From Lytechinus pictus (lineage: Eukaryota): 64,000 bases of DNA. The notes beneath the pieces were generated by a model. The model searched no databases and had not been told where the DNA came from. It saw only the letters and a list, made by a program, of their open reading frames with translations. Shown one piece after another: positions 696 through 27,513 of the stretch. Within the stretch, counting starts at the first letter, position 1, and the number at the start of each line of letters is the position of its first letter. The translations under genes were made by a program, and so were the position numbers. The stretch is taken from assembly GCF_037042905.1 (NCBI RefSeq), contig NC_087251.1, positions 48,424,001 to 48,488,000 of the forward strand, in the 5' to 3' direction.

Positions 696-2043
696 TTTTT
701 GTCTCCCCTGCATAGCAGAGCGAGACTATAGGCGCCGCTTTACCGACGGCGATAGCGGCGGCGTCAACATCAAATCTTAACCTAAGGTTAAGTTTTTGAA
801 ATGACATCATAACTTAGAAAGTATATGGACCTAGTTCATTAAACTTCGACATAAGGTTAATCAAGTATTACTGAACATCTTGCCTGAGTTTCAGGTCACA
901 TGACCAAGGTCAAAGGTCATTTAGGGTCAATGAACTTAGACCATGTTGGGAGAATTATTTTCAAAATCTTAACCGAAGGTTTAGTTTTTGAAATGACATC
1001 ATAACTTAGAAAGCATATGGACCTAGTTCATGAAACTTGGGCATAAGGTTAATCAAGTATTAGTAAACATCCTGCTCGAGTTTCAGGTCACATGACCAAG
1101 GTCAGAGGTCATTTAGGGTCAAAGAACGTTGGTCAAGTTGGGGGTATTTGTTGAATTACTATCATAACTTTGAAAATTTATGGATCTAGTTCATGAAACT
1201 TGGGCATAAGGTTAATCAAGTATTAGTGAACATCCTGCTCGAGTTTCAGGTCACATGACCAAGGTCAAAGGTCATTTAGGGTCAATGAACTTTGGCAAAG
1301 TTGGGGGTATTTGTTGAATTACCATCATAACTTTGAAAATTTATGGATCTAGTTCATGAAACTTAGACATTAAGTTAATCAAGTACCACTGAATATCCTG
1401 TGCGTGTTTCAGGTCACATGACCATGGTCAATGGTCATTTAAGGTCAATGAACTTTGGCCGTGTTGGGGGTATTTGTTAAATTACCATCCTAACTCTGAA
1501 AGTTTATGGATCTAGTTCATAAAACTTGGACATAAGAGTAATCAAGTATCACTGAACATCCTGTACGAGTTTCAGGTCACATGACCATGGTCAAAGGTCA
1601 TTAAAGGTCAATAAACTTTGGCCATGTTGGGGGTATTTGTTGAATTACCATCCTAACTATGAAAGTTTATGGATCTAGTTCATAAAACTTGGGATACAAG
1701 AGTAATCAAGTATCACTTAACATCCCCTGTGAGTTTCAGGTCACAAAACCAAGGTCAAAGGTCAGTTAAGGTCAATAAATTTAGGCCATGTTGGGGTAAT
1801 TATTGAATTGCCATCATAACTTTGAAAGTTTATGGATAGAGTGAATGAAATGTGGACATGGGTGTAGTTGACAAGTCTTAAGTCACCGTTCAAATGTCAT
1901 TTATGGTCAATGAATGTGGTATTATGTCATTATATGAATGGTGTTTTTGTGAATGATTATTTTATAGTAGTTTTCAAAGTTAGCACTGCTGCTATATTAA
2001 ATCGCGTAATGCAGGCGAGACTGCCAGAGGCGTTCCACTTGTT
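696..2043 (+). mobile_element. HINE/Tsp-like non-autonomous element with about 6 internal ~163-bp tandem repeats
   Basis: 5' T-run plus gtctcccctgca...gcgagac hairpin and GGC microsatellite; 3' subterminal inverted repeat tgcaggcgagac, short hairpin and cttgtt. Unit anchors at 893, 1085, 1248, 1411, 1574 and 1738. Confidence 0.8.
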
Positions 2044-2261: not shown

Positions 2262-2474
2262 GGTATGGTCCTTGGTGATCTTGCTGCTCTTCATGCACAC
2301 ACCATCAGAGCGGCACTGTCCAGGATTGTGGCTGCCTGCTCTGTAGGTAGCAAGCTCTCCATCCAGGAAGAGAAGGACATCTGTGCTGCTGGGGTACAGA
2401 TCCATCAGAGTGACTTTGAGGTGGCCCTCAGCAAGCTCCAGTCTGCGCATGCTGACAGCATTGGTGCTCCTAAG
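2262..2474 (+). CDS. PEX6: PEX6 internal coding exon (end of D1 region and linker)
   Basis: AG at 2260-2261 and GT at 2475; 213 nt, phase 0/0. Translates GMVLGDLAALHAHT...LSKLQSAHADSIGAPK; the 'IGAPK|IPNV.W.DVGGL' junction is a PEX6 hallmark. Confidence 0.93.
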
Positions 2475-3148
2475 GTATTTTGAAGTTATTCATCCCCTTT
2501 ACTGATTCAGTCAGATTTAAAAAAAAAAAATCTTTACCCTTCTAGTTAATGGTTCAATCTTGATGAAGTTTCTGGAGACTGAGGAAATAGCTAAAAGAAC
2601 GGGGTCATATATTCAAGTTTGACTACTGCAAAGAACATGATCGCCTAGGCAGTTGAGAGAGGGATTTGGATTGCGATGACCGGAGTTTGAGTCCCTCTTT
2701 GTGCGCTAGTGCCCTTTGTTACGTTTTTATCCTCATCACCAAGTCTCTCGAAGAGAGGACTTTAAACATTCGGTCCTTTGATTGCTTGCTTACAACCATT
2801 CATGCTTTCTTTGCAATTGGGTAAAAAAAAAACACAAAATCACCACCAAATGATGTGAGATTGTCTGTAGGTTTTATCTCTTTTTTCTCACTTGGCTGTG
2901 GAATAAGCTCCCTCCTCTCGTTAAATCATCACTAATATTGGATCAATTAAAACGAAAGTTGAAGACCTACATTACCTTTTTTAGTATCCTATTCATGTAT
3001 GCACTGGACTTAGAGCAATACTGTCACTGCCTGGTAATTTGTATTTATTTTATATCCTTTGCTGACCAGGGTTGGCATCTCAAAGCATGTTGTATCCTGT
3101 GAAACAGGAGCTGTATAAATATGAACCGTTATTATTGTTATTACTTAG

Positions 3149-3269
3149 ATTCCTAATGTGAGCTGGGAGGATGTTGGTGGTCTGTCCGATGTGAAGGCTG
3201 AGATCCTGGACACCATACAGTTACCTCTACAGCACCCTGAATTGTTTGCTGCAGGACTCAGAAGATCAG
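3149..3269 (+). CDS. PEX6: PEX6 coding exon (start of D2 AAA domain)
   Basis: ttacttAG acceptor and GTcagt donor; 121 nt. [40 protein letters not shown](G). Confidence 0.96.
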
Positions 3270-3980
3270 GTCAGTTTTTCACAAAACTGTTCGTAAGTTA
3301 CAAGAAATTTATGGATGACTGGTATAAACCCTTTTTTGTCTCCCCTGCATAGCAGAGCAAGACTACAGGCGCCACTTTTCCTACGGCAGCATCAACATCA
3401 AATCTTACCCTAAGGTTAAGTTTTTGAAATGACATTATAACTTAGAAAGAGAAAGTATATGGACCTAGTTCGTGAAACTTGGACATAAGAGTAATCAAGT
3501 ATTACTGAACATCCTGCCTGAGTTGTAGGTCACATGACCAAGGTTAAAGGTCATTTAGGGATCAATGAACTTGACTAATTTTGGGGGTATTTGTAGAATT
3601 GGCATCATAACTTAGAAAGTTTATGGGTGTAGTTCGTGAAACATAGACATAAGGGTAATCAAGAATAAATGATTGTTTTGCACACATCTTAGATCTTATT
3701 ATCATGGTCAAAGTTAATTTTGGGTCAATGGACTAGTATTTTATTATCATATGAATGTTTTCGTTTGTGAATAATTATTCAATAGCTGTTTTCAAAGTAA
3801 GAACTGCTGCCAATTATCGAATCGCGTAATGCAGGCGAGACTTCCAGAGGCGTTTCACTTGCTTTTAAACTAAATCGGTACCTATGAAAATCTGGTGCGT
3901 ATCATCATTTATCACAAAAACGGTCACCAGTGGTTTGTGAAATCGTTTGTAACTTACAAAGAGCTTTTTGAAAGACCAAA
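3270..3980. mobile_element. Degenerate Harbinger-like palindromic MITE interrupted by the HINE copy
   Basis: Left arm tttcacaaaactgttcgtaagttacaa and right arm ttgtaacttacaaagagctttttgaaa; related copy at 49284-49412. Confidence 0.6.
3332..3862 (+). mobile_element. Short copy of the same HINE-like element (1-2 units), nested in a MITE
   Basis: Same 5' and 3' modules as 696-2043; inserted in a T-run. Confidence 0.8.
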
Positions 3981-4962
3981 TATGTCAGTTCAGGAGAGAG
4001 AGAGAGAGAGTTTCATGAAGCATCTTTCAGTGATTTTTCTCAGCAAACTTGCTTGTAGCCAATCAGATGCAAGGATTTCAGTAGCATGTTAAAGTTATCA
4101 GTGTTAATCACAGTGCTTCCCATGCTTTCAACCCTTTCATCAGAGGTTTATTTATAGGGATGAATAGATCACATATTCTTCCTCAAATTGGCAACATTAA
4201 TTTATTTTGATTGCTACATTAATTATTATTACAACTTGTGATTAGGATTTGATCTAAGGTGGATTGGAAATTACCAAACATTAGTGAGCAAAGAAAAGGA
4301 GAAATTTGTATATAAGTTGAGAAAATTGATGCCAAGTTTTGAAATGATAGACAATATATCCATATCTCCTTGTGTGATGAAATCTTACACCTCGAAATAG
4401 TAAATATTTTAAGAGAGTGAATAATTACGACTTCCATAATACCGTTGTTTTCCTTTTCATGTGGCGTAGGGTGTTTTTAATGTCAATTTTCAAATATAAG
4501 TAGCACATGAGTCATTATTGAAAACACAATTATAAAGTGTGGATATAATGTGAAATAGAGGGTGTGTTGACTGTCCCCCATTTCTGGTCATAAAAGTAAA
4601 CAAACGTCTTTCAGATCTTGATTCGGATGAAAATTTAAATGCCAAAAAGGGTATGTTTGGAAATGCGATCAACACAGATTTTACAAATGTGACACTGAAC
4701 ATTGAAACGTCTTTAAATTTGCGCTAGCAGTGGAAGCCTACTCAGACACATGCCAGAATTGACCTTTCTTGTGATGGGTCAAACAGTGCAGTAAGCTGCG
4801 CTAACGAGAGTGGGAAATTTAAAGACAATCGATGTGCAATCAGCTTTATGTTTTCAACACTGAAAGGTGTACCCCTGATTGTGTTCATGTTCTGTGTTTT
4901 GTACATGTAATTGCGTTTTCAATCATGATTCATGTTGCTGTTGAATTTTCATGAAGCTCTAA

Positions 4963-5163
<201 letters not shown>

Positions 5164-5691
5164 TGAGGTTGGACGGGCAAATACTATCTTTTTCTGATTG
5201 CCAGTCCAACCGAGGATGAATGATTCCCACTAATACTTTCAAAAGAAACTCGTAGTATATTTGTTTTATATCTCTTCCCTAAATTTAGCGATAAACCTTG
5301 GTGGTTTTAAATGTCCTAGTTCCTATTCTGGACTAAATTTGTTTAGCCACTACACACCAAGGGTTTCCCACTTGAGACAATTTAACATCTGCTGTGCCCT
5401 AGATTTACCGTTTACTCTGTGTAGTTTTCAATATTTTTTCTGGGGAGAACTGCTTATGCTCAATGTTTATTTGGCTCCGAATAGTTTTTTAATGGAAATA
5501 ATAGTGGAAAAATATATATTTGTCACATGAGCACCAATTGACCAATCATTTTTACACATGAATATAATTCTTCATAGACAGATACGTGACACACCCTCAA
5601 AAGATATATAATGCCCCACCCCTGAAAAGAAAACAGTAATGTACTGTATTGTAGATGTAATGACACCCTTTCCTCCTTGATGGGTGGGGGG

Positions 5692-6662
5692 TGTCACGAA
5701 ACCAAGCTGAAGTATATTCTCGCCTTGACGCAAAGAAATACCTGTGACTAAAAGCTTTGCAAGAAGAAGTTGATTTTATTACAAGTTCAAGACTTCAAGA
5801 TGAATCCTCAATTCAACGCAGCGCAATCAAATACCAGCTCTGAGACATACGTCACCCTCTTTTTCATAGCTATACCATCTTCTGCCTAAAATTCACTTTC
5901 CTTCCACTATTTATAACCTACTGTTACATATAAATGTATAAAGGAATATATAGAGAATTACATAGAAATGTATAAAGGAATAAATAGAGAATTCTCTACC
6001 CTATGTTTCTCCTTGATCGAAATTACATAAACTACTCTAGCCAATCAAGGCTCAGGATTGACTTATATAAGTTATATTAATCATTATCTTGGGATGGATA
6101 TTTGTGATACATGTACATAGAGTAACTACTTGGAACCAATCATCTCACAGGACCACCTTACATAAGCGTTGGGAGGTGCATTTAAAGAAATACGTAATGA
6201 AACTTCTTTGGACCAATCACATCAGAGGAGTTCCTTACATCAGTTAAGTTGTTCCTTGTCTGGAGATGGATGTAAAGAGTTACAAAGAATAACCACTTTT
6301 GGCCAATGATACTATAGGGCTATCTTGCATAAGTGTCTGGATATGAACTAAAGTTTTGTAAAGAGAAACGCTTTCTGACCTGCCAATTGCAGTTCAGTAC
6401 TTTCTTACAATTTTTCCAGTCTGGGGTAATGAATGTTTATTCCTCCCTTGACGTTTGTATCAAGGACAAAGACCCCTGCAGTAGGAGAAAAGACCCTGGC
6501 CTATTTTGAGCCATGGCCTTAAGACTTGAAGCCATGTGAACGTAAATCCTGGCATGTGAAATGGGATACTGTATTAGGACTTTCACATGCCTACTTTAAT
6601 CTTAGGTACACACCTATCACTTAGAAAGAATATTATTTAACTGTGAGAATTGCTTCGTCACA
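5692..6662 (-). mobile_element. Solo LTR (971 bp) of an LTR retrotransposon
   Basis: TG...CA ends with short inverted termini (tgtcacgaa / ttcgtcaca) and G-run TSD on both sides. Minus-strand TATAAATAG (5915-5907) followed by AATAAA (5780-5775). Confidence 0.8.
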
Positions 6663-8322
6663 GGGGGTAGAATGGATGAACACCATTGCCTAACAAAATC
6701 AAGACTCAAGACAACTGATGACATCTGTAATTCTGTAATATTCTCTCTTCCAAACTATAAAAGTATCCTACTTGTATCCTACATGTAGGCAATTCCATAA
6801 AATATGTATGTCCAACTGATAGTGGGACCTTTCTTAATTAATTTTCCACTATTCATAGTTCATGAATTGTTATGATTATATTTGATTTGCTTGGTGTCAC
6901 CTGTGCCCGGGAGGCGAAATGCAAACTAAATCACTATGACACGCAAGCCTCTCCCAAACAGTTCATGAGATAAAGTCAGATTTGAGAAAAAGGAGGGTCG
7001 GACATTCAAACAGGTTGATTATTTTTATGGAACTGCTCATGTGTTGATAAATAGTAATATGATTAGGAAAGAATGTATTTATCAAAAATAGCTTTTGCTA
7101 ATCTGAATATAAAATGCTCTTCTTCGGTCCTGCATAGTATTTTGTCAGTAGTTTGAATTTTGCTGTAAAAAAAAATATTGAATGCTTAGTCTATTTTAGT
7201 TTGCTTGCTACTTAATGGGGTATCCTGGGATGAAAAATATGTGATTTGAAGAGATAGAATCAAATCAGACAAACAAAACTGAAAACTTCATGAAAATTGA
7301 ATGAGGAATAAAGTTTTGACATTTAAATGTGATGTATTATATAGTTTAAACAGTTCTATTTACTGTACGCCCTGGTGGATATGCAATTAGAAATCTGATG
7401 TAATCTCCCCACTTATTATTTTGGTATTTTATTATATGCCATTATCTTTGTTAAGATATTGTCCTCCGAGAATCTAAAATTAGGATTGTCTAATGATATA
7501 CAGTGTAAGATGATCATTGTTGAATTTTTTTTTTAACAAGGGAGACACGTTTTATTCATACATGTAATGAAAAAAAGAAAGGATGGTTATATTATCAGCC
7601 CACGTATAGTGCACATTCATGAGGGTGTGCATCAAAATGTTTTCATAAATATTGCTGAAGTGCAGTGAAGTTCAATAACTTCATCATTTTTCATTGTATT
7701 TTAATGAACTTTACAGGGTTTTGCTCATTGAATTTTACTCTGTTCATTTAGGTTATGTTACTTGCAGACTGTAATACCTTTTTAAAGTGTTGTGATGTAT
7801 GGAAATCCATCAGCGTCAAATTTTTTATTTTTTTGTGTAAGAAATTCGCACAATGTCCTTTGTAAACAAAGTGAAGCACCCTAGCTTTCTAGGAAAGCAA
7901 TGAATGTATGAATAAACAGCATCTATCTAGAAAATATTTTGAACAAACATGCATTTTAGATGTTGACATTGCTGGCTTTCCATAGTTGTGGTTGATAGGA
8001 TCAATCACAACTTTTTGTAAGATGGGGCCCAGACCACATTTCATTGATGTTGAGGCTCATAGTGCTGAAAATACAATTGTCCGGGGGGTCTGTTTAACAG
8101 AAAAAGAAGTATGACTTATAGGGTGTTTCAAGAAACTTGCAAGTGATGGCAATTTAATTTTAGGTCCCAACAACAATTGAAAGTCATGCATTTCAATGTA
8201 TAGATGGTCTGCTTCTTGCATCAACAAATATAAATTGATTTGCTTGAGTTAAAATTGATCTATCACTTTTAAACGTGCAATTGATTGCAAATATTTTCTT
8301 GCAATACTAGTACCCCCTCCCT

Positions 8323-8530
8323 CCAGGGGCGGATCCAGCTTTCACCAATGGGGGGGGGGGGCGAAATTCTTTTTACCCATATTTCCCCGATCGGCTGCTC
8401 AAAGTTGATTTTCATTTGTTTCTTTGAAGGGGTAGTCCTAACAGTCACTTCTTAGCTTTATTCTCACAAAACATGAATAATGTCTTATAAGCCCTAATTG
8501 AATAGTACGAGCGCGAGCTAATTTTTTTAA
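8323..8530. mobile_element. Truncated inverted copy of the right end of the 17878-20722 family
   Basis: caggggcggatccagctttcaccaat...gatcggctgctcaaagtt is the reverse complement of ~20620-20722. Confidence 0.65.
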
Positions 8531-8881
8531 AGAAAAAAAACACCATCCAGTGGCTGTTTGGCTGGCATCTTGCCAGTGTTCAGCTTGCACTTGGCCTGGT
8601 GCGGTTCTCTTAAAGCAGTGGCAGTTCTCTGAGCACTGTTGTTTTTGCATGATTTCTCTCATCATATTTTATGTTTATCAAGTATTGAGATCAAAATTTT
8701 CTAACCAGAGTTAAATATGGAGTAAATAAACCCTCCACAGACTCAACTCAAACCTCATTGCTTGTGCAGCCACCAAATGCCAAAGCGATAAATTGCTTAG
8801 CCCATTATAAAACAAATGTGCTTAATATGACAATTTTATCCTAAAGAAAAATCAAGATTATTTTTCTTGTTTTTACCATAG

Positions 8882-8943
8882 TGTGAAAGGACCTGAACTG
8901 ATCAATATGTATGTAGGGCAGAGTGAAGAGAACGTCAGAGAAG
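8882..8943 (+). CDS. PEX6: PEX6 coding exon with pore loop 1
   Basis: catAG acceptor and GTatg donor; 62 nt. (S)[20 protein letters not shown](V). Confidence 0.97.
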
Positions 8944-9116
8944 GTATGTCATTTTGATGGTTTATGCTATCTTCAAAGGTTTCTCAACGTAAGTCAGAAT
9001 CTTATTTGTCCTTTTAAGCTTGTTTTTAAAAGCCCAACCCCAAAGTGACCAACCCCAAAGTGACCTTGGGTATCTTCTTATCTTAATACTGAAACCCTTC
9101 ACAAATTGTTTTTATT

Positions 9117-9504
9117 CAGGGTTTCCAGTACATCAGGAAAATCAGGGAGGATGTTTTTACTTTTTCCAGTCAGGGTAAAATCAGGAATTTGATCAGAAAT
9201 ACCTCATATCAGGCAAATGACAGAAAAATCTGAATTTTTATCAGCCCAAAAGTCGAAAGCACAGTAGTCAGTCAGAATCTGTTATATTTTGTTGCATATA
9301 AAAACAACATCCATTGAATGACTGGTTATGGAGGTGCTAATTAGTTTCACATTATTGTTTTTATACTGAAAATACATGTAATTCAATGCAACTACTTAGA
9401 AAGCATGCGAAACTGGGAATGGTTTAGATAATTATCAGGAAATTTTTAAACTTCATCAAGGAAAAATCTGGGAATTTTGTTTTCTTGAAATGCTGGGTAC
9501 CCTG
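9117..9504. mobile_element. hAT-like MITE
   Basis: cagggtttccag...ctgggtaccctg termini; flanks tttttatt / ttattatt (7 of 8 match). Confidence 0.6.
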
Positions 9505-10307
9505 TTATTATTACTGGTTCAAAAGAACCTTACGGCTCCTCATTAGTCAAGTGTGGTGATGAGTTTGTACAATTCCAAGTGACCTCCCACGTAGCCATGA
9601 TGTAGTTTTGGAGGGGGCGGTAAGTGCACGGGAATTGTGCCAGGTGCAGGGACTTTTAATGTCTCATCAAATTCAAATAAAAAAGACATCTCTAGTACCC
9701 TATATCACCTTGAATTCAATTGACTTGATGTGATTTAAAACTTATTTTCGAAAGAGATTATGAATGCCCCTTAAGGGATAAGATTGAGGAATTTGAAATA
9801 ATTCCTTGTGTGGAAGTTAAAACACTATCAAATTTTGAGAAAAGAAAGGGCATTTTTGGAGTCGTATCGGATGCCTACCTTGGTCAGATCAAATTTGATA
9901 GCAAAAAATAAATTAGGCACATTAGACCCCTGTTACATCTAAAAATCGGTGGCCCGGGGCCAGCCTGAGACCAGTTGCAACCTTGACAAGGATTAAGTAG
10001 ATTAGCTTTGCGAACGGACCTGGTCCGTAAATGTGTCTGTTTTACATGTACATCACAGCATTTTTCCTCCACTCTTCGGGACGCAGACGGAAGGTTGAGC
10101 TACATGGGACCGAGTAGATTTTTTGTTTTATAACATGTTTTTCTTGGTTTATTGTCTTCTATCAAATCAAATATAAACTACAGGTAACAATCAATCTCAT
10201 AAGCAAATCACTCATCTGGCTTTTTGGATGTATTATGTTAGTAATTAGTAAAGTACAGAAGTAAATGTTATGCCTTTGATGCAATATTATTTTATTCACG
10301 ACACTTT

Positions 10308-10437
10308 CCCCTTCTTCTCTTTCTTCTTCTTCTTCTCCTTTTTCCTTCTTCTTTTCTTTCTTATCTTTTGAGTCCTCTTCTTCTCCTTCTTCATCCTCTT
10401 CTTTGTCTACTTCCTCCTCTCCTTCTTCTTCTTCTTC
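10308..10437. repeat. Imperfect (TTC/CTC)n polypyrimidine tract
   Basis: Read directly from the sequence. Confidence 0.9.
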
Positions 10438-12274
10438 ACAAAACAGAGTAGAAGACTTGGTATGCAGAGAGAAGATATTCCTTCTTGCAAATAGTGCAGA
10501 AACTCTGAAATTTCAAAATTTTATGAGATTTTCACATGCTCTAATTCAGTTGATTTTTCTATGATTTTAAAACCTGATTACAAAGAAAAGAGTGTACGAA
10601 ATGGGAAATGGATGGTGCAAGGAGAGGGATTTTTTTTATCTCAAGCGAGGCACAGAAACCTGTGTGATATATTAAAAAAAGAATATGTGTAATATCACTC
10701 ATATTAAATGTTCCCTTTTATATGATTACGAAGTTGAGTGATATTCAAAATTTCAATGTTCGGGCGCGAATCAAAACAGGAAATGGATGTGCAAATTAAG
10801 ATGTGAAATAATAGCATATGGGGAATGGTTGTTGTTTTCATCCGCTATGACCAGAAGCGCCAATATTTTGTGTCATCACTTTAAAACAAACAAGATAACT
10901 TGTCATATACTGAACTATTTCGACTCTAATTCCATGTGGGAATGTGTACTCTTATACTTTCTGGCAAGAAATACACAAGTCCTGCAGATGAGAAAGGGAA
11001 AACGGTGTAGGGAGAGGGTGTTGGAAATAAAGGGGAAAGGCAATTTTGAAATTTTCCTATGTGGAGTATGGAAGCAAAATATTTTGTATGAATCCCGAGA
11101 GATAAAATATCTCGTTCAGGTTTTTGATCTTTTGAGAAAAGAAGGAAAAACCATATAGCTATATCCCTCCTTCCCTTTTCTCCCTTTGCTTTTTCTTTCT
11201 CCCCCTTTTTTTGTTGGGGGGCTAACCATTACCCCCTTAAAAATGACCATAATTGTCCCTATCCCGTTACCATCGAAACATAAATTCAGATGTATGGGTT
11301 TACACACATCTGTAGATGAATTTCAAATTTAATACAGGCTCTGTTTCAAAAGCTCAATAATATCAACCTATAAAGCATTCAACATTCCATCGCTTAGCAG
11401 TAATTGACTGAATTAATCAGACAATAAAAATGATAATAATAGTCACTGGTTTCATCATTTTGAATAGTTTCCCTAGTAACATCCAGTCATGTCCTTAAGT
11501 ACAGTTTTTCAAAAACAAGCTAAAAAACTAGTTTATCTATGAAATCCACTTTATAGATTGTAGGCACTTGGGGAGTACATGTAGATCTGCATGTTTGCTT
11601 TTTTTCAGTGATATTTGAAAGCGCTTTGAGCATGTTTAAATGGAAAGGCATAATGAACAGGCTGAAATGTATGTCATGCATGTATGTACATGTATGTGTG
11701 TGAGGATGTATGTGCGGGTGTATGTATGTACATGTATGTATGTATGTATTATTATTATGCTGTTGTATAGCACTAGGAACCGGTAAGCAGATTCTTGTTT
11801 GCCTGTACACAACGTATTGAATTTCTACCCTCCCTCTGGAACATCTCTTTTCTTCTTTTTTCCACTCCTTGAGGAGTATTCCAGGAAGGGTTTTTGTACT
11901 CATCTCTTTTCTTCTTTTTCCCCCACTCCTTGAGGAGTATTCCATCAAGGGCAAGGAGATGACGCGACGTGACGTGGTCTTGGCGTCCTGAGATTATTGC
12001 CAAGATTTGCAAGAAGATACTGATTTCTTTTCTATTTTTTATGACTTGACTTAATTGTGATTGTAAACACCTATGTTTTCGTGATGTAATTGCCACAAAA
12101 TTTTCGTTATTGGACTGATCTGGAGGGAGAAACAGCAAATCTGCATTGCCGAACGCTCAGCATTTGAACGTAACTATATATATTCTCTCAGTCCCATATG
12201 TACTTTTGATCGTCACATATATCCGTGTGTATATTGTTCCCGCCTAAGCCTTACGTTCGCTTTGGTGTCCGATC

Positions 12275-13120
12275 ATGGCGGGTAAGGGGGATGGCGCCAA
12301 AGTGAAGCGCACCCCTAAAAGCAAGAAAAAGGTGAAACATAACAATCCAAATGATTCTGAATGTGATATAGCTGATGACACTGTTATGATTGATATGTCT
12401 GAACATTCACCAAATGATGATTATCACCTTCAAACAATTCTCACTAAATTACTAAAAACAAAAGAACTCATGAAAACACTGGAGACTGTCTGTAAAGAAA
12501 CAATGGATAAAGTAGTGAATGTTCAATGTGAAAACATGCGTCGCCACATAGAAGAAAATGAATCAGCCATCATTCAACTTCAAAATTCTTTGGAGAGTAA
12601 AGAGAAAGAAACATATATTCTGGAGAAACAGCTACAGAATGAAATCGAGAAAAGAGAAGACGTGAAGCGCCAATTGAATATTCTCGAGCAGTATACAAGG
12701 AGAAACAGCATTAGAATTTTTGGTGTGAAAGAGAAAATAAGTGAAGATACCGATCAAATAGCGATTGACATTGCCAAGGATCAGCTTGGGTTCAAGTTGA
12801 AAAAACACCACATCGATCGATCCCATCGAGTAGGTCAAAAAGATCCAACCAAGGCTAAACCCATCATCGTTAAATTGTGTTCCTACAAACAGAAGACGCA
12901 ATTTATGAAAGCGAAAAAGACATTGAAAGGGAGTGGAATTTCTATTCAAGAAGATTTGACACTGACAACCCTCAAACTCCTCAAGAAGACAAGCCAACAC
13001 AAAAATGTAAACGCGGCATGGACAAGTGATGGCCGTGTTATCGCCTCGGTTAAAACGACAGATCCTAACACTTCAATGAAGAAACAATTCTTCAGAGAAA
13101 GTGACCTTCTTGCCTTATAA
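12275..13120 (+). CDS. LINE ORF1 protein (coiled-coil plus RRM/CTD-like), intact, 281 aa
   Basis: Motifs LEQYTRRNSIRIFGV, IDRSHRVG, PIIVKL, ISIQEDLT and AWTSDGRV, typical of L1-like ORF1 in CR1/L2 elements. Confidence 0.88.
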   Translation: MAGKGDGAKVKRTPKSKKKVKHNNPNDSECDIADDTVMIDMSEHSPNDDYHLQTILTKLLKTKELMKTLETVCKETMDKVVNVQCENMRRHIEENESAIIQLQNSLESKEKETYILEKQLQNEIEKREDVKRQLNILEQYTRRNSIRIFGVKEKISEDTDQIAIDIAKDQLGFKLKKHHIDRSHRVGQKDPTKAKPIIVKLCSYKQKTQFMKAKKTLKGSGISIQEDLTLTTLKLLKKTSQHKNVNAAWTSDGRVIASVKTTDPNTSMKKQFFRESDLLAL

Positions 13121-13429
13121 ACTCTATTAACGCTACAGTTTGTCTATTCCCTATGGGCAATTTTAGTAGATCCTGAAAAACTGTGTTATATTAAATACCC
13201 TTCTATAATATTCACGAAACTGTTGTTCAAGTTAAATCAAACCACATTGTATTTGTAACTCAACATTAATATATATATATACATAATCATAAAGATTGTA
13301 ATTTTATATTCTGCATTTGAATAACTCTTTGTATGTCTCAATACAACTTCAACCCGATAAATTTAAGGGTTAAATTACTGTCTATATCATATGTCTATCA
13401 ACATATCATTGATATATGCATACTTTTAA

Positions 13430-13957
13430 CTTTTGTGGTTAATTCTAAGATTCATAATTATAACAAACGTCAGAGACATCTTATTCACCAACCCTATGCT
13501 AGAATTAATGCTACATTGAAATCCTTCAGAACAATTTGCGTTAAAGAATGGAATATGTGTCCTGCTGATATAAGAAGTAGCAGTACCCTGTCTCGGTTTT
13601 AGAAATTATGTCATAAATACCTACTTGATAAATTTAAGACCAGTTGTTAGTTGCACCTGGGAGTGACATGTTTGGAGTGTGAATGGGTGTGTTTGTCTGT
13701 GTGAGTGTGTGTATGCTTGCGTGTGGGTAGTGTTCCTGTTGTGATCTTTAAATACCTTGTATTTTTTTTCTTCTTCTTTTCATAGTTATTCCATGTTTGA
13801 GTAAAATATCTTATGCAGGGGCCCCTGATTACAAGCTGTGCTTCTTTGGGGTCCCAAACCTGTCATTTGTTTTAGTTCTTTATAATGTAACCATTTATTT
13901 TGTTTGTATTTTGTTCTCCTTTGACTGGTTTGAATAAATTAAATTCAATTCAATTCA
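13430..13957 (+). mobile_element. 5'-truncated 3' end of a second LINE between ORF1 and ORF2
   Basis: FVVNSKIHNYNKRQRHLIHQPYAR...SFRTICVKEWNMCPADIRSSSTLSRF parallels the ORF2 C-terminus at ~17050-17240. Has its own 3' UTR and AATAAA plus (AATTC)n tail at 13933-13957. Confidence 0.75.
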
Positions 13958-14311
13958 CTTACATTATTATATTATCATGTGTCTATATATTTGCTGAAGG
14001 CAAACCTAAAATTGACGAATTTTCCTCCAGATTATCCGAATTGTTTATGCGCTAAATAATATATAGTAATTGTTTTATACTTTTATATTCTACTTCATTA
14101 TTATACACCATTATATTGTTTAGATCTTTGCTTATAGTGTGTACATATTCTATATTAGATCTTTAATGGGCTTTTGTATATGTTTTTCCCGTGTATTTAG
14201 TCTCTCAAAGTCATATTGTAACAATTGCCATTTCCACTTTAAGAACATGTCTTTAGATATCAATGCCAGTGTCTTAACGATAGTAGATAAACAAACAATG
14301 TAAATCCTTAG

Positions 14312-17261
14312 ATGGTTGAGTCTTTAAACATGTCTTTTTCTGAAGAAGAACTCAAATCTAATGAATGCCACTTTTATTTACCCGATGAGTTTAATTCCTG
14401 TCATAAAAACAACAAGTCTTATTTCAGCTTACTACATTTAAATGCCCGGAGTTTAAGTCGCAACTTTGACATTGTATCTAATCTACTTAAATCCCTGAAC
14501 AATTCGCTATCCATCATTGGAGTAAGTGAATCATGGTTAAACCCTAATTCTCCTACTTTATTCAATTTAGAAGGTTATCAGATGTTACAGTCGGACAGAT
14601 TACATGGACGTGGAGGAGGCGTAGTATTATATGTAAAAGAAGATATTTCCTTTCAATTAACAACCCCTCTGTCCGAATCACCAGACTTAGAGATGCTTTT
14701 TGTAGAAATTACCAATGTCAAATATAAAAATGTAATTGTAGGTGTAGCATATCGTCCACCCGGTACGAATATTGAATCATTCACTCTTCAATTAGAATCA
14801 TGTATCAGTAATTTTTCGAAAGGTGGTAAACATATTTATCTAATGGGCGACTTTAATGTAAACTTACTTACAAAAAACGACCAGACTTATAATACATTCA
14901 TGTCGTTTCTGAATAGTTACGCCCTCTATCCATTAATAGACAAGCCTACCAGAGTATCCCCGGCATCCGCAACGCTTTTAGATTTTCACAAATGTTGTAA
15001 GAGAAGATTTCCAAAGTGGTATTTTATACTCTGATATATCAGATCACCTTCCTATTTTTTACAATATCAAGAACACAAGGGAAACGATGTGAATCTAATG
15101 AATATTTTAATAGACAATATTCAATCGAAAATATAAACTCCCTTAAAATCGACCTTATAAAAGAAACCTGGTCAGATGTTTTTCAAGAAACACATGACAT
15201 GAACATAGCATATGAACTTTTTCTTCAAAAATTTAAGGAATATTATGATAAAGATATACCTTGTTTGCTCAAAAAGAAAAGAAAAAATAATGTTCATAAT
15301 CCCTGGATTACTAATGCGATAATGAATTCTATCCGAAAAAAGAACCGATTATATAAGTTGTATATACGCAATCCTAGCAATACCGTCCAACATAACATAT
15401 TTAAGGCTTATCGTAACAAACTAACAGCCGTTATTAGAGCATCACGCAAAATGTATTATACAAATAAACTTAAAAGAGTATCGGGAAATATGTCTGCTAC
15501 CTGGTCCATCTTAAACAATATCTTAGGTAGGGGCAAAAGAACAGAATTCACAAAGAAATGTACTCTGAAAAAGAAAAGACACATGACCCACAGAAAATTG
15601 TAAACATCTTAAACAAATATTTTGTAAACATAGGGCCAATGTTATCAAAAACTTTTATAACTAATGAGCACTCTTTTAAAGATTTTTTACCTGAACGAGC
15701 TGAAAACTCGATATTTTTCAAACCCGTAAGACCACACTAAGTTATATCCATAGTAAAATCCCTTAGAAATACCAAAACTTGTGGTCATGATGATATTAAC
15801 TCACTTATCTTAAAACAAATAATCTTTTTTATAGCTGAACCACTATGTCATATTTTCAACTTATCATTGTCTCTTGGATGCTATCCGAATTCTTTCATAT
15901 TAGCACGGGTCGTACCAATATTCATAAAGGGAAATCGTATCCAATGTGAAAATTACCGACCTATATTTATCTTACCCTCTTTATCTAAAATCTTAGAAAG
16001 AATAATCCATATCCAGGTATATAATTTTTTAGACAAAAACAAATTACTTTGCACCGCCCAATATGGTTTTAGGAGACAACATTCAACTGAATTAGCAGTT
16101 TTGGACTTATATGATAGAATAACCAAATCCCTTGCAAAAAAACAATATATAACTGGATTATTTTTTGACCTTTCAAAAGCGTTCGACACGCTTGATCATT
16201 CAATATTAATACATAAACTTGAACATTATGGTATAAGGGGTACGCCTCTTGCATGGTTCAAAGATTATTTAAAGAACAGAATTCAATACACTGAGGTCGA
16301 CTTAAATAAATCACAAATTTTAGAACTCCAGTGTGGCGTCCCACAAGGATCCATTCTTGGGCCGCTTCTTTTTATAATATATATGAACGACATTGTAAAT
16401 TCTTCCAAAATGCTTAGCTATGTGTTATTTGCAGATGATACGACACTGTTATATTCCCATCATGATTTTAATAAAATGATCGTCACTATCAATGTAGAAT
16501 TACGTAAACTAACCAACTGGCTACAATGTAATAAGTTATCTCTAAACCTCAGTAAAACCAATTATATTATATTTCACAACCCAATAAAAAAGATTATGGA
16601 AGACCAGTGCCAAATCTTAATAGACAATACCCTAATTGAAAGGAAAACTAATGTTAAATTTCTTGGCGTTGTTCTCGATCAACATTTAAACTGGAATTAG
16701 CATTTTCAGCATCTAAGAACTCATATTTCTAGAATTATTGGTATAATGTTTAAACTTAAAGATACGTTAATGCCAAAGTCTATTATACTATTGTACAATT
16801 CTTTTATATTATCTTATTTATCTTATGCTAATATTGCGTGGGGTTGTGGAACAAAAAGAAATGTTAATTCCTTATTGCTACTGCAGAAAAGAGCCATAAG
16901 AATTTGCACAGGTTATCCTTACTTAGCCCATACTGATCCAATTTTCAAAAAACTGAACATGTTAAAAATATCTGATATCATTATCTTACAAACTGCAAAT
17001 TTTATGTTCAATTACACTAATCACTTGGTTCCAAGCAATTTCAATTCAATGTTTATACGCAATACCCAGGTTCATGAACACAATACCAGAGGTTCTAACA
17101 ATTTTCATCTTAGTAATCCCAAAACAGTACTTGCTTATAAATCCATTAGACATAGAGGACCTGATGTTTGGCACTCGCTGCCTTGTGAAATTAAAAGATG
17201 TTCTTCGCTTTATTCTTTTAAACGTAAGCTAAAAAAACACATATCATCATATGACTCATAA
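14312..17261 (+). pseudogene. LINE ORF2 (AP endonuclease plus reverse transcriptase), disrupted
   Basis: APE motifs HLNARSL, GVSESWL, YRPP and GDFN; RT motifs NYRPI, QYGFR, DLSKAFD, GVPQGSILGPLLF, FADDT and FLGV. Two frameshifts (~14985, ~15560) and two in-frame stops (15738-15740, 16698-16700). Confidence 0.93.
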
Positions 17262-17572
17262 ATCTTCTTAAAGTGTATTTTGATAATTTATATATTGTTA
17301 CACTGGCTTCCAGTTCCCGATGGGGGAGGGGGGGGGGTTAGGACATTTGTTCATGTCATCATTTTAACCTATGCCAATATATGTATTGCCATGATGGCAC
17401 TCGGGGTCTGCCTCGTCAAGACCTTTCGGTCTTTTGCAGTCTCCCAAATTTCATTTTATATTTATGTATGTTTAATTGTTTTGTTACTATGTATTTCTCT
17501 GATATTGTATCTTGTATTTTTATTGAATGGAATTTGAATAAATTGAATTGAATTGAATTGATTTCATACTAA

Positions 17573-17701
<129 letters not shown>

Positions 17702-17877
17702 TAAATTTGATTCAATTGTATTTAGCAAGAGATGCGTGTGACCATAAAGTTTAGTTTAATGGTATTGTAACATTAGATTTTCAAACAATACTAGATGGAA
17801 AGCAGACCAGTTCCAAATACACAAACTGATTATAGGTAAAATTTTTATGACTAAATCAATAAAACATTACTATTGGG

Positions 17878-20722
17878 CATAGGCAGATCCGGGGGGGGGG
17901 GGGCCAAGGGGCCTGCCCCCCCCCCCCCCTATTGGCAGAGCAGAAAAGAGAAAAAAAGGGGGAAAGAAAAAAAGGAGGGAAAAGAAGGGAGAAAAAAAAA
18001 AGAAGAGGAGGAAGATGAGTGAATAAAATAAGATGAGGGGAAGACTAAATAAAAAAAATCTTTCATGTCACTATATAAAATTTTAACTCGTGCTTTGCGC
18101 TCGCATTGCCTGTTAGGTGATTTACATATATTGCTCAATATGGAACTTAAAATATCAAGTTTGGAAGTCAATATACATGTACAAAACATATTTCAGCTTG
18201 TTTTTGGGGGTTTACATATTGATTTTGAAAAAGCGCTCTGGATAGTACAGAACAAGCCGAGATGTGAACCATGGAATTGAGATATTTCTACAGTGTTGAT
18301 TTGTAGATTTTATTCAATCTGAAATGATAAAAAACAGCATATTTTGAGTCATCTCATCCTGAATTAAAACATGCACTTAAAAATGAATATCTTGTGTAAC
18401 CTGGTCTTGATGCATTAACATTTGTCCATTCTGACCAAGATTGACTTTCATTGTTTATAGTAAAAGCATGGATTAAGACTAATATAAATCAACTGAAGGT
18501 CTGAATGTAGCAGACAATATTATTTTCTATCAAAATCACTCCTTATACAAAAGGTAGAAAAATTCATCGCCCAATTTTGGCAGGGCGCCATCAACGCATA
18601 GTTGAGTCCAACTATGCCGAAACAATTCCCTAATAGCTTTTAAAACTGCTTTTCTCTAAATTAAATGTATATGCAATTATTCATGAACCAAAACTAGTTT
18701 TGTCAGAAACTTATTTCTACTTTTTTTAAAATACACTTCATGAGTTCACCAAACGTTCATGTATCAGACTCATGACCATGTTTTTGTATCATTTTGTATA
18801 GATCTATATAAATTTATGCACTTTCACCTCGCAATGAGCAACTTGTCTTAAGCATAGATATGCTTTAAAATACATCAATCCAAACTTTGTAATATGAAAT
18901 TAAACCCACATATTTTGTCTCTTCAATCTCACTAAAAGAAGTCTTATATTTTCATGCTCTTGCTAAGATTATAAATCCAAACCAAACTAAACTTCCTGGA
19001 AATGTTCATATTCACATTTTCCAACATCACTAATTGCTCCCAAAAAACTAAACAAAGCTTTCAACTGAAGCCTTTCATTAATTAAATATTCAGAATTTAG
19101 ACATTTTGTATCTTTTACCTTATAACACAAATTTCAGTTATGTGCATTTAAGACAATTGTGATCAGATTCAACACGAACCTTTCGAGCCAAAAATTGTCT
19201 ACTAACTTCAACCCCTTTTCACGTGTACATTTATAATGAATTTTTACTTCTGTTATTCGTCAATAACTCTCTTTGACTTTCTTGACATAATTATACAATC
19301 AACACATTATCTCCCCTATTATCTGATTAATCTACGAAACTTACTTCTATGACGGGACACAAATGAACATTGCTGAATTTGACATAAAAGGTGACGAACT
19401 GCAACACCTCCGTTAATTCATGAACGTGAAAAATCTGATGCTGAAGATAGCGCACTGCTGTAAATTGACGTGTTGACAAATTTGCTATGGTATCTTTGAG
19501 ATAGATAATTAAAACAAAGGTTATAATAATTATATGGCGTTTAATCCAAAACAAATCACTTTTTTCCAAAGTTTAATCTTCTCTCCAATTTAGCCTTTCT
19601 GAAGGATTAAATTTTCTCACATACGGTATTCAGCTTCTTACCAAAACACGCTCTGTAAAGATTTTTATGGTCTGAAAATTTTTTCTCGCACTAGGTCTAG
19701 ATTTTGATAATTTTCAGCTCGTGCTTCCCCCTCCCATTCCTTGTTTAGTTAGATACAAATGATGTCATACGAATTATGTTGTATGATTAAAAAAGCACTA
19801 ACTTAGAATATTCCGCCTTAACATCTTAATATTGAAAAATATTTGCACTCACATGTTTTTCTTTACTTGTCATGTCTTTACTAATTGCCCTAGATACGCC
19901 ACTGCTTAAATTGACCCATTTCGGATAGGAATGTCAAATGTTTGAAGCTCGCGCTTCGCGCTTCTTTATGATGAAAAGTGTATTTAGAATGCCCAGATTC
20001 TAGGTCTAAATCTGAAACCCGCTTGCATGTTTTTTCAGATACGCAGCTTGTTCTCTATTCAAATAATTTTCCAGTTTCAGATCAGAATTAAAAAAATATT
20101 CTTAATATATAGTATATTATTAATGTAGGAAGATCCCCAATTACTCATCATTTTCATGATTTACAAAACATAAATAGAGTGTCCCAGTTTTAGGTCTAAA
20201 TCTTGAATTCCGGTTTACTTATATACCTATCCTGTTCAGGATTACAAAAAGTGCTTAAAATTTCCATTCTTTAGGTAGAAATGTCAAACATTTTCTCATT
20301 ATATGATTATTGAAACATGTAACATCTTCATGGCTAACTGCAAGCAGTCCTTTACAGGTACCTTTTCGATCAGTTAAAAATGTAATAATAATTTCTGCTC
20401 ACGCTTTGCGCTCGCAGGAATTATTTAGTTGCATACACATCTTCTTCAGGATCACAAACATTGCCCAGAATGTTCAAATTTTACGAAAAAGTACATAAAA
20501 TTTCAAAAAAATTTAGCTTGCGCGTTGCGCTTGCACTGTTTGAATAAGGACTATGAGATTATTATATATTTATGTTGATTTATAAGAATAAAGCTAAGAT
20601 GTGACTATTAGGACTACCTCTTCAAAGAAACACAAAAATAAACTTTGAGCGGCCGATCAGTGAAAATATGGCTGAGAAAAATTCCGGGCCCAACGTATTG
20701 GCGAAGGCTGGATCCGCCACTG
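17878..20722. mobile_element. 2.8-kb non-autonomous hAT-like element
   Basis: Termini cataggcagatcc / ggatccgccactg; perfect 8-bp TSD ctattggg (17870-17877, 20723-20730); recurring gctcgcgcttcgcgctcgc-like motifs inside. Confidence 0.8.
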
Positions 20723-21073
20723 CTATTGGGTTATAGAGAGTAATAGATGAAAATAACAAGGGAAAGGGGAATATGAGATTGTGAAATATCTTTCATGCTA
20801 TAATGTGCAGTCCTTAAAGGGATTGTTATGCAAATAAAATTGATGACTTGGATGAGACGAGATGAGAATTCCTGGTAGCGTGATGAGTAGATGAGTTCAG
20901 ATTAGAAGTCCTGGCAGTGATGAGTATATGAGCGACGACAAGTAGATGAGCATTGAAGACTGTCTGGACAGTCAATCTTGGCTGTTTTTGCCAAACCTGT
21001 AAACCACTTTTTTGCAGGTTTCACAATTACCCACTGCCTTTCATGAAGTATTTCTTGAAGTACCTGTAACTAA

Positions 21074-21235
<162 letters not shown>

Positions 21236-21246
21236 TAAATAGAGTA

Positions 21247-21490
21247 GAGGTGTGGTCACTCAGTGGCTAAGTCTCCAGACTTTGAGCCCCAAGGTCCAGG
21301 GTTCAAATCCTACAGGTAGCACTCATGTTCTTTCACAAAGTGTTTATCTGCAATTTACACTCTTCACCCAGGCATAGTAAATGGCACCTGATCAGGGTAG
21401 CCATGCCAAGCCGGGGTTTTAATATGCAGCACTTAAGAACATTGTATGAAGTGCTTTAATATAAATGCTGCATATTATAATAATTATTAA
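21247..21490 (+). mobile_element. tRNA-derived SINE
   Basis: A box (tcagtggctaag), B box (ggttcaaatcc), cactcttcacccagg...taaatgg core and ATT-rich tail. Confidence 0.75.
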
Positions 21491-22101
21491 GTATTGAGAG
21501 TGGTATTTGGATTGCCTCTGTATGACTCTTATGGAAAGTTAGGAATTCAAGATAAAGGACAATTACACTCATATCAAACATTTTCATTTTCGAGGCAATG
21601 CAAATCCATAGTTTCTTCTGATTTATTTTGCCTGTTGTGGTTTCTTGGAGGCATTAGGTTTTGTTTCCACGATAACTGATACAACTTTTGACTTCTTGGT
21701 TTATACATGCTGATAAGAGGGATTATCAGAAATTTGAATTATAAGAGATTGTAAACAAATGAAAATTATATAATCAACAAGACCAGCTCAGCATCACTTT
21801 CACGGATACTGAAAAATTGCCCCCCCCCCCTTGGGGTATGCTCCTCGCATAAGAATCTCTTGTCAAATAATTTTCACAGACTGGAACATTTTCATTTGTT
21901 TACAATCTCTTATAATTCAAATTTCTGGTCATCTTGATTCCTAATACTTTCTCAGATTGCTGTTAAATGGTGTTTCACTTGCAGTTGATTATGGTGTTGA
22001 AGCATTTCACAAATTTGTACTTCATTGGATTTGTCTTGAATATTTCTGTTGCCTTTTTCCATATATCAGTTCTCTATTTTTTGTTTCCTCCTGTCTTTCA
22101 G

Positions 22102-22179
22102 GTTTGATAAACTTCTTTACCTAGGAGTAAGTGAAGATAGATCATCACAGTCAAGAATTCTTCATGCCCTGACAAGAAA
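22102..22179 (+). CDS. PEX6: PEX6 coding exon
   Basis: tttcAG acceptor and GTgagt donor; 78 nt. (R)FDKLLYLGVSEDRSSQSRILHALTR(K). Confidence 0.95.
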
Positions 22180-26047: not shown

Positions 26048-26471
26048 TATTTTTATCGCTATTTCTAATTGATAATAAAAAAAAAAATTCTTCATTATCT
26101 TTTGACAGAATGATTTTGCAGAAAAAATTTCATGAAATCTAATAAGACTATACACATGTGTTTGTGGGGGGGGGGGAGGAGGCGGTCTAGGCATTCCTTC
26201 TTATTCTCTCTTATTCCATGTTTTTCATTGATTGTTACAATTTTGCCCTACATTACGTTTGTAGGTCAATGTACAAAGGAACAACCACGATTAAACAATA
26301 GCAAATTATACAACAATGATCTTCTAAGATGTTTTTCTGTATTGAGTATTATGATGAAAAAGTCCTGACTTTATTGTTTTGATTATTTTGTACAGAAAAA
26401 GACCATTGCTCCCTTTCCAACTAAACTTGGGTGATGATGCATATGGGGAACCTTCATTGTGTAGTGGCATC

Positions 26472-26785
26472 AGGGCCCCGTCTTACAAAGAGTTGTGATT
26501 GATGCAATTAATCGCAACTATAGAAAGCCAGCAAAGTCAACATCTAAAATTCATGTTGTTTTTTTTTATTAGATATGAATGTATATCCATAAATTCATTG
26601 ATTTTTTGACAATTTGGTGTGTTCCCCTTTTGTTTACAAAGGACATTTTGCAAATTTCCTGTAGAAAAAATTATGACACTGATGGATTTCCCAGACCTGC
26701 CAACCAGTACTTATTAGCCGTATTTAGTACGTTTTTGCAACCAAAATACGGCAGTACGTTTTTTCTTTAAAAAATACGTTTTTTG

Positions 26786-26816
<31 letters not shown>

Positions 26817-27311: not shown

Positions 27312-27513
27312 ATGTCACATCGTTTTGTCAAAGGACATTTCATTTCAAACATTAAAGTGTACCTGCTATACTCTAATCACTCATAATTCGACAACCGTTA
27401 GTCCAATAGCTACCATTTGCGTGACTTTTAATAAGGTTCCTTCCAGGCAAGAATAAGAACCACTACACCATGTTATGATGTCATAATGATGTCATTTTTG
27501 CGCTCTTAACTAG

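What the first reader, a model, noticed from the sequence alone, without database searches (positions are those of the whole stretch)
893..1800. Each HINE tandem unit is a dense cassette of nuclear-receptor response elements
Seen: each ~163-bp unit carries AGGTCA-ca-TGACCA-AGGTCA-a-AGGTCA-ttta-GGGTCA-a-TGAACT (e.g. 893-936 and 1248-1291), six RGKTCA-type half-sites in 44 bp. Established: AGGTCAnAGGTCA is DR1 (RXR, HNF4, COUP-TF, PPAR), a 4-nt spacer is DR4 (TR, LXR), and GGGTCAaTGAACT is an IR1 of the FXR/EcR type. Roughly 25 units across five element copies place these sites in and around PEX6, a peroxisomal gene. Inference: a rolling-circle-type element may be spreading copy-number-tunable NR enhancers or sinks, or may recruit host NRs for its own activity. 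The motif could instead be a transposase-binding site.
Basis: partly seen in the sequence, partly recalled or inferred. Interest (0 to 1): 0.7.

Follow-up and report, generated by a model that had tools for sequence, protein, structure and literature searches.

The report
Receptor-like sites in urchin jumping DNA
A common non-coding jumping element of a sea urchin carries, in its internal repeats, a tight cluster of the six-letter word that hormone-type receptors bind, and look-alike elements from other animals keep the same word, so it may help the element spread rather than control the neighbouring gene; no binding has been shown.

Summary
The window is Lytechinus pictus DNA around PEX6. The repeats are central units of non-autonomous Helentrons (HINEs): five copies, 29 units, two subfamilies sharing termini. 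The AGGTCA cluster is real and confined to the elements (76 sites inside, 12 outside, 10.7 expected). What is kept is AGGTCA-a-AGGTCA. Subfamilies A and B share a 23-bp word while the rest is about 54% alike. Tens of thousands of contigs pile up on the cassette. A motif-only metagenome scan returned three other HINE families, with different termini and the motif in the same polarity. Oyster Cg_HINE_6 carries a DR0 version. Best reading: a core kept for the element's own success, most likely a landing pad for promiscuous or monomeric nuclear receptors (about 0.45). Rivals are a transposase iteron and slippage; bacteria also make (AGGTCAA)n repeats. Nothing supports a PEX6 enhancer. No binding data exist here.

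The parts
696..2043 (+). HINE copy A1 (non-autonomous Helentron), six ~163-bp units, upstream of the PEX6 exon that begins near residue 884, so in an intron
700..726 (+). 5' subterminal inverted repeat (700-713) and its partial inverted copy (720-726), forming a hairpin after a T run
   Evidence: 696-760 folds at z -2.3; the B copy at z -3.9
746..765 (+). short GGC-type microsatellite of the left module
893..936 (+). cassette of unit 1: five perfect RGKTCA sites plus one mismatched (TGACCA); DR1 at 907-919
1085..1128 (+). cassette of unit 2 (DR1 and DR4 intact, IR1 broken)
1165..1213 (+). upstream boxes of unit 3: TAACTT (1165) and AAACTTGG (1196), 31 bp apart and 66 bp before the DR1; subfamily B has the same spacing (31 and 67)
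   Evidence: second depth peak
1248..1291 (+). cassette of unit 3, complete; DR1 at 1262-1274 is the part invariant in public contigs
1411..1781 (+). cassettes of units 4-6 (1411-1454, 1574-1617, 1738-1781), each with one or more sites broken
2009..2031 (+). 3' subterminal inverted repeat (2009-2021) and a short palindrome (2023-2031)
   Evidence: palindrome not stable above shuffles
3337..3865 (+). HINE copy A2, two decayed units, PEX6 intron
24043..26045 (+). HINE copy B1: same subTIRs, different 154/171-bp unit x11 sharing a 23-bp DR1/IR1 word with subfamily A; PEX6 intron
32957..33655 (+). HINE copy A3, three units, about 4 kb past the PEX6 coding end
34884..36632 (+). HINE copy A4, seven units (three with a 10-bp deletion), with a foreign foldback element nested in its microsatellite
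2262..28935 (+). host gene PEX6: nine coding exons for residues about 884-1237

Best explanation
The repeats are the central tandem units of a non-autonomous Helentron (HINE), copied by rolling-circle transposition with the RepHel enzyme of an autonomous partner (anatomy shown; mobilisation inferred from the family). Each unit is an amplified copy of an old internal core: an AAAyTTGG-type box followed by a run of AGGTCA direct repeats with an A-rich 5' extension, always on the element's forward strand. The core is kept across subfamilies and unrelated HINE families because copies that have it spread better: selection acts on the element, not on the host gene (inferred). The most likely reader is a host nuclear receptor that tolerates any spacing or binds as a monomer (COUP-TF/TR2-4/RXR on DR0-DR2; NR4A, NR5A or ERR on the extended half-site, the latter recalled). 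In oocyte or early embryo it would open, tether or mark the element for replication (inferred, no data). Effects on nearby genes would be occasional by-products. PEX6 is a bystander.
For: Motif confined to elements, one strand: AGGTCA 76 inside vs 12 outside (10.7 expected), TGACCT 1 inside. Subfamilies A and B share subTIRs and an exact 23-bp word (unit A4u4 vs B consensus; 14 bp between consensuses; shuffled mean 7, max 11 of 300), while the rest is about 54% alike and their last 60 bp 58%. Contigs of 4 public runs (30,704, 31,342, 21,982 and 3,149 laid) give about 4-5 times more depth on the cassette than on the mid-unit linker, and no variant of 8% or more in 1261-1275. A scan with the motif alone returned 119 metagenome loci; 58 fall in three families with HINE-type ends unlike the urchin's (both ends seen in 16 of 30, 9 of 15, 3 of 13), with the motif in the same polarity. 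GTCY microsatellite lies upstream on the same strand in 42 of 107 loci vs 1 on the other strand (8 vs 1 of 52 clusters). Oyster Cg_HINE arrays hold AGGTCAAGGTCA 442+327 times. RXR, COUP-TF2 and HNF4 bind DR1 (PMC3384313, passages). Sea-urchin COUP-TF protein is maternal (PMC4227642, passages).
Against: No binding, chromatin or transposition data. The metagenome scan selected for the motif, so it cannot say what share of HINEs carry it. Oyster CL1-CL5, including the abundant Cg170 families, have no CAAGGTCA match and only 3 stray reverse matches before CL6, so the cluster is not needed by all HINEs. Spacers are as conserved as half-sites, and the cassette as a whole varies at the same rate as the rest (5 of 44 vs 13 of 119). 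The depth peak may partly reflect other AGGTCA-rich repeats aligning. 12 high-GC loci carry (AGGTCAA)n; at least one, L054, is a bacterial ATP-synthase operon with no nuclear receptors. Units and families are related by descent, so counts are not independent.
Confidence: 0.45

Rival explanations
1. Iteron model: the 6-7-bp AGGTCA direct repeats, with the upstream box, are binding sites for the Helentron RepHel (or another replication factor), like the short iterated repeats beside rolling-circle origins (recalled: circoviruses, geminiviruses, RCR plasmids). The match to the NR half-site is coincidence.
For: Fixed polarity relative to the termini in 5 of 5 families or subfamilies examined. The core is kept even in one-unit elements of about 250-300 bp. 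Spacing between boxes is the same in A and B. The oyster paper invokes repeat motifs recognised by transposase-related proteins (PMC7492417, discussion passage).
Against: Families with different subTIRs, and so probably different RepHel partners, share the same word, which fits a conserved host factor better. Major oyster HINEs lack it. No autonomous partner was found to compare: none among the window's ORFs of 90 aa or more (read by eye; 3 scanned) or in 60 of 178 locus ORFs scanned.
Confidence: 0.22
2. Neutral inheritance and slippage: an ancestral HINE core happened to contain AAGGTCA; slippage and unequal exchange multiply it, and homogenisation among copies keeps the block alike. NRs may bind it in vitro, but nothing depends on that.
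For: Spacing wanders between DR0, DR1 and DR2. A 10-bp microhomology deletion occurs in 3 of 18 units. A thrice-repeated hexamer is common in shuffles (759 of 2,000). The same heptamer repeat occurs in bacterial intergenic DNA. The conservation excess is small (about 6 points) and covers spacers too.
Against: An exact 23-bp word survives between subfamilies whose other bases are near background (upstream-only score reached by 12 of 500 shuffles). The same word in the same polarity occurs in families with unrelated termini and in an oyster family.
Confidence: 0.23
3. Host-selected enhancer or sink: arrays act as copy-number-tunable NR response elements for neighbouring genes, here PEX6 or the downstream K2P channel gene.
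For: In this window only HINE arrays exceed 10 RGGNCA half-sites per 520 bp (max 13 inside, 6 outside). In S. purpuratus, genes with more than 10 such sites near the start respond 2.0-2.6-fold more to T3/T4 (PMC10250714, methods section and passages). Helitron-borne HSEs rewire genes in Caenorhabditis (PMC6927752, passages).
Against: Copies decay freely (units 61-93% alike; 4 of 18 complete). All five copies are intronic or downstream. Arrays never reach the 8 DR4 sites used in that paper (max 3 exact, 5 with two mismatches). Conservation among paralogous copies is not what host selection on one locus predicts.
Confidence: 0.08
4. Structure model: the cassette is kept because it folds into hairpins in the single-stranded transposition intermediate.
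For: 1240-1300 folds as ssDNA at -9.5 kcal/mol, z -3.6. The TGAACT and TGACCA 'half-sites' are the return arms of two hairpins.
Against: No covariation in 15 units (65-203 of 500 shuffles as high on every measure). Subfamily B does not fold notably (z -1.4). Units with the 10-bp deletion lose one arm.
Confidence: 0.04

Closest known systems
Cg_HINE elements of Crassostrea gigas (Vojvoda Zeljko et al. 2020, PMC7492417; read: parts 1-2 of 7 of the text, passages, supplement 1 whole, searches in supplement 2)
   Same: 5' subTIR + IR + microsatellite, short array of 140-180-bp units, 3' subTIR + palindrome; often in introns. The CL6 units carry an AGGTCA cluster, CL9 one CAAGGTCA per unit.
   Different: The urchin subTIR is not among the 11 listed. 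The oyster cluster is DR0 (442+327) and almost never DR1 (0+1). CL1-CL5 lack it. No passage returned for 'conserved', 'motif', 'box' or 'protein binding' mentions nuclear-receptor sites.
DINE-1/HINE non-autonomous Helentrons, including sea-urchin Tsp (Thomas et al. 2014, PMC4067079; read: passages and a supplement search)
   Same: Terminal anatomy, T-rich ends, a conserved internal core beside variable central repeats; Helentron proteins and Tsp are reported for S. purpuratus.
   Different: I could not compare with the Tsp sequence (not held). No DR0/DR1 string occurs in the 42,774 characters of held supplements, which may omit the sequence file.
HSE-carrying Helitrons of Caenorhabditis (Garrigues et al. 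2019, PMC6927752; read: start of abstract and passages)
   Same: A rolling-circle element carries many binding sites of one host transcription factor, which may serve the element and can rewire neighbours.
   Different: There binding and regulation were shown. Here the motif is an NR half-site, recurs in unrelated HINE families, and nothing is shown functionally.
NR2F2/NR2C2 binding to TCAGGG variant repeats at ALT telomeres (review PMC7073516; read: passages)
   Same: Orphan receptors bind tandem half-site arrays and are linked to recombination and insertion of repeat DNA, a model for how a landing pad could aid a mobile repeat.
   Different: Human cancer cells, telomeric repeats, no transposase. 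The review notes that targeted insertion was seen in one cell line only.

Membership tests
HINE (non-autonomous Helentron) | 11-15-bp subterminal inverted repeats, near the 5' end and 20-60 bp from the 3' end | tested here: met
   subTIR at the 5' end of 5 of 5 copies; the 3' copy matches with 1 mismatch or fewer in 3 of 5, and the 3'-end motif is found in the other two
HINE (non-autonomous Helentron) | partial inverted repeat beside the 5' subTIR (hairpin) | tested here: met
   folds at z -2.3 (A1) and -3.9 (B1)
HINE (non-autonomous Helentron) | microsatellite then central tandem repeats, no coding capacity | tested here: met
   GGC-type runs and 154-171-bp units; only chance ORFs inside B1
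HINE (non-autonomous Helentron) | short palindrome after the 3' subTIR | tested here: inconclusive
   9-10-bp palindromes present, but folding not above shuffles (z 0.41 and -0.46)
HINE (non-autonomous Helentron) | insertion into TT/T-rich sites without target duplication (empty site) | tested here: inconclusive
   T runs at 5' ends and TT at 3' ends in 5 of 5 copies; no empty site could be compared, since no genome is held
HINE (non-autonomous Helentron) | autonomous Helentron partner with the same subTIRs | not testable with these tools
   no genome held; no RepHel seen in the ORFs examined
Nuclear-receptor response element | RGKTCA half-sites in DR/IR arrangement | tested here: met
   DR1 20, IR1 19, DR4 9 inside elements; 1 DR1 (reverse strand), 0 IR1, 0 DR4 outside
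Nuclear-receptor response element | half-sites more conserved than spacers, spacer length fixed | tested here: not met
   spacers 0.93 vs half-sites 0.927; spacing differs between families; DR4 lost by deletion in 3 of 18 units
Nuclear-receptor response element | receptor occupancy and effect on transcription | not testable with these tools
   no ChIP, ATAC or reporter data reachable

The most novel reading that the evidence does not exclude
Many animal Helentrons (urchin, oyster and other animal hosts) keep an ancient AGGTCA core to recruit host nuclear receptors for their own propagation. Their arrays are thereby the main source of dense receptor-site clusters in invertebrate genomes, including the half-site-rich promoters reported to respond more strongly to thyroid hormone in sea-urchin larvae.
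Probability: 0.2. Interest if true: 0.82.

Novelty: new variant of a known kind. Interest (0 to 1): 0.5.

Why it matters
The element class is known and ordinary. What my searches did not find in print is that a nuclear-receptor-type half-site run is a shared core of several unrelated HINE families. If receptors read it, it would give a first function to the internal core of DINE-1-like elements and name a host factor in Helentron mobility. It would also mean a repeat making up about 10% of this window seeds hormone-receptor sites genome-wide. Even without function it matters for analysis: motif counts for TRE, RARE or PPRE in urchin and mollusc genomes will be dominated by these arrays. The published link between half-site-rich promoters and thyroid-hormone response in S. 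purpuratus (PMC10250714; its main text has no hit for 'repetitive' or 'transposable') can be re-tested at once with repeats masked.

Tried and rejected
No whole genome is held, so no genome-wide consensus, empty site or partner search. The 20-bp shared word gave 1 hit in genome contigs and 0 in viral contigs: chance level. An HMM of subfamily-A units found only short, weak matches in the 120 loci (best E 2.5e-6, output partly cut): the other families share grammar, not alignable sequence. A fixed 52-bp distance from the upstream box to the first half-site, seen by eye, is inconclusive: 6 of 40 clusters at 50-53 bp, against 7 at 8-11 bp and at most 4 away from these two peaks, and no peak. Over cluster representatives the box was not enriched upstream (1 of 48). 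A strict automatic HINE-end test found only the L002 family (13 of 30 loci, 0 in reverse control; 2 hits in the L003 family are artefacts of the motif). The counts use looser motifs read from the same loci. The hairpin model failed the covariation test. DR4/TRE and IR1/FXR-EcR readings were rejected as family-specific. No RNA holder is on record among the 24 runs listed; I laid 4 of them, all contigs, so nothing on expression and no copy number. The oyster array file holds 3.35 M characters against 4.76 Mb in the paper's table, and I did not see CL7, CL8 or CL10-13 row by row. The C. gigas satellitome supplement gave 8+8 half-sites, with a DR0 cluster in CgiSat21 (PMC8268682, supplement search only). 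The PMC10250714 supplements had no site list. Earlier-finding look-ups by sequence and by words found nothing on this element.

Full report
Setting. A 71-residue exon at 2262-2474 is 100% identical to a protein named PEX6-like of Lytechinus pictus. Nine exons map from 2262 to 28935 and encode residues about 884-1237. No whole genome is held.

Observation. The quoted string stands at 893-936 and 1248-1291. It has five perfect RGKTCA sites; TGACCA is one mismatch off. Self-comparison and tandem-repeat search give five elements, all on the + strand: A1 700-2045, A2 3337-3865, A3 32957-33655, A4 34884-36632 and B1 24043-26045. Subfamily A has 18 units; 10 keep a perfect DR1, 9 a DR4, 10 an IR1, and 4 all five half-sites. 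B1 has 11 units of another sequence, with 10 DR1, 9 IR1 and no DR4. The elements cover 9.9% of the window and hold 76 AGGTCA against 1 TGACCT; outside there are 12 AGGTCA for 10.7 expected. Two earlier notes on other genomes describe AGGTCA saturating whole loci (unchecked); that is not the case here. The consensus count of 6 RGKTCA is reached by 2 of 20,000 shuffles, though some hexamer occurs three times in 759 of 2,000 shuffles.

What it is. Each element starts after a T run with a subTIR and partial inverted copy that fold back, then a GGC-type microsatellite, the array, a 3' subTIR, a short palindrome and TT. This is the HINE anatomy given by Thomas et al. 2014 (passages) and Vojvoda Zeljko et al. 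2020. A and B share the subTIR, but their last 60 bp are 58% alike: one family, two subfamilies by the published rule. The 3' palindrome is weak, and empty sites and an autonomous partner could not be tested.

Is the cassette constrained? Within the 18 A units, half-site columns are 0.924 identical to consensus against 0.856 elsewhere (3 of 162 circular shifts as high); with gaps counted, 0.897 against 0.836 (6 of 162). Without CpG-touched columns: 0.927 against 0.863, but the 8 spacer columns score 0.93 and the upstream box 0.90. The block is conserved, not specifically the half-sites, and the units are not independent. Between A and B an exact 23-bp word holding DR1 and IR1 is shared (unit A4u4 vs B consensus; shuffles give at most 11), while other positions are about 54% alike in a gapped alignment; the boxes upstream keep their spacing, 31 then 66-67 bp. 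Laying one unit on 4 of the 24 listed public runs drew 30,704, 31,342, 21,982 and 3,149 contigs. Depth peaks on the cassette (X2: 11.4 M at 1262-1267, 2.2 M at 1220-1225, 3.7 M at the upstream box). No variant of 8% or more falls in 1261-1275 or 1280-1291, but over the whole cassette 5 of 44 positions vary against 13 of 119 outside. This depth is no copy number, and other AGGTCA-rich repeats may add to the peak. The DNA runs hold only 0.17-0.23 of the words of a PEX6 stretch, so they are probably from a related species.

Beyond the urchin. The three largest (30, 15 and 13 loci) have HINE-type ends with three other subTIRs; both ends are seen in 16 of 30, 9 of 15 and 3 of 13 loci, with the motif in the same polarity as in the urchin. 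A strict test confirms the first family only (13 of 30; 0 in reverse control). The GTCY microsatellite lies upstream on the motif strand in 42 of 107 loci and on the other strand in 1. Hosts were not determined; an L27-domain fragment beside one copy points to an animal (L27 as an animal domain is recalled). These families show DR0, DR1 (searched for) and DR2, never DR4 or IR1. In the oyster arrays of PMC7492417, AGGTCAAGGTCA occurs 442+327 times, first in cluster CL6, and the DR1 form 0+1 times; CL1-CL5 lack the extended site and CL9 has one per unit. So the half-site with an A-rich 5' side recurs in HINE cores of at least two phyla; spacing does not, and some successful families do without it. 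As a control, 12 high-GC loci carry (AGGTCAA)n, one between bacterial ATP-synthase genes: the word can arise with no receptor.

Mechanism. Conservation among paralogous copies and across families is what selection on the element predicts; selection on a host enhancer would show at orthologous sites. Families with different termini probably use different transposases, so a shared internal word points somewhat more to a conserved host protein. Receptors that accept DR1 (RXR, COUP-TF, HNF4; PMC3384313 passages) or extended single half-sites (NR4A, NR5A, ERR; recalled) fit. Urchin COUP-TF is maternal (PMC4227642 passages), and orphan receptors on tandem half-sites are tied to recombination at ALT telomeres (PMC7073516 passages). 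I put this at 0.45, a RepHel iteron at 0.22, neutral slippage at 0.23, a host-selected enhancer for these loci at 0.08, and ssDNA structure at 0.04. The cassette folds well (z -3.6) but shows no covariation. All steps from motif to binding to transposition are inference.

A testable link. In S. purpuratus, genes with more than 10 RGGNCA half-sites near the start respond more to T3/T4 (PMC10250714; methods section and passages). In this window that density is reached only in HINE arrays (max 13 per 520 bp; max 6 in 54,533 overlapping windows outside). Whether S. purpuratus has this cassette was not tested, promoters differ in composition, and the arrays do not reach that paper's DR4 threshold.

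Known and new. The element is a member of a known class; Helitrons that spread transcription-factor sites are known (PMC6927752). Seven searches found no paper linking HINE cores to nuclear-receptor half-sites, within a library that lacks most subscription journals and Repbase.

Verdict. Observation partly confirmed; HINE about 0.95; the PEX6, DR4 and IR1 readings are not supported; the cross-family AGGTCA core is the real lead. Interest 0.5.

Noticed in passing
window 34949-35381: A foldback element of about 430 bp built from 16-bp units with long inverted arms sits inside the microsatellite of HINE A4, flanked by a 9-10-bp direct repeat (34940-34949 and 35382-35391), like a Mutator-type target duplication (label recalled).
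   Followed up: partly
window 12248-17261: A LINE in a PEX6 intron: a 290-aa ORF1-like frame and an ORF2 in several frames with a reverse-transcriptase domain.
   Followed up: partly
window 40793-41269: First exon of a probable two-pore potassium channel gene (weak Ion_trans_2 hit), about 4 kb after HINE A4; if any gene start in the window is near the arrays, it is this one.
   Followed up: partly
window 700-36632: All five HINE copies lie on the + strand, the sense strand of PEX6 (chance about 1 in 16).
   Followed up: no
window 24128-25136: The first six units of B1 are nearly identical (171-bp period with a 17-bp duplication) while later 154-bp units diverge, suggesting recent expansion at the 5' side of the array.
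   Followed up: partly
L003:180-600 (also L029, L035, L084, L110, L112, L118): A seven-locus repeat family with very dense DR0/DR1 AGGTCA runs and no HINE ends found; in L003 it abuts a 476-codon open frame with no Pfam match.
   Followed up: partly
L054, L021, L008, L010, L012, L030, L056, L063, L070, L092, L109: High-GC contigs with (AGGTCAA)n-type heptamer repeats right after stop codons or between genes; L054 is a bacterial ATP-synthase operon.
   Followed up: partly
window 63353-64000: Long CTA-type trinucleotide repeat running to the window end.
   Followed up: no
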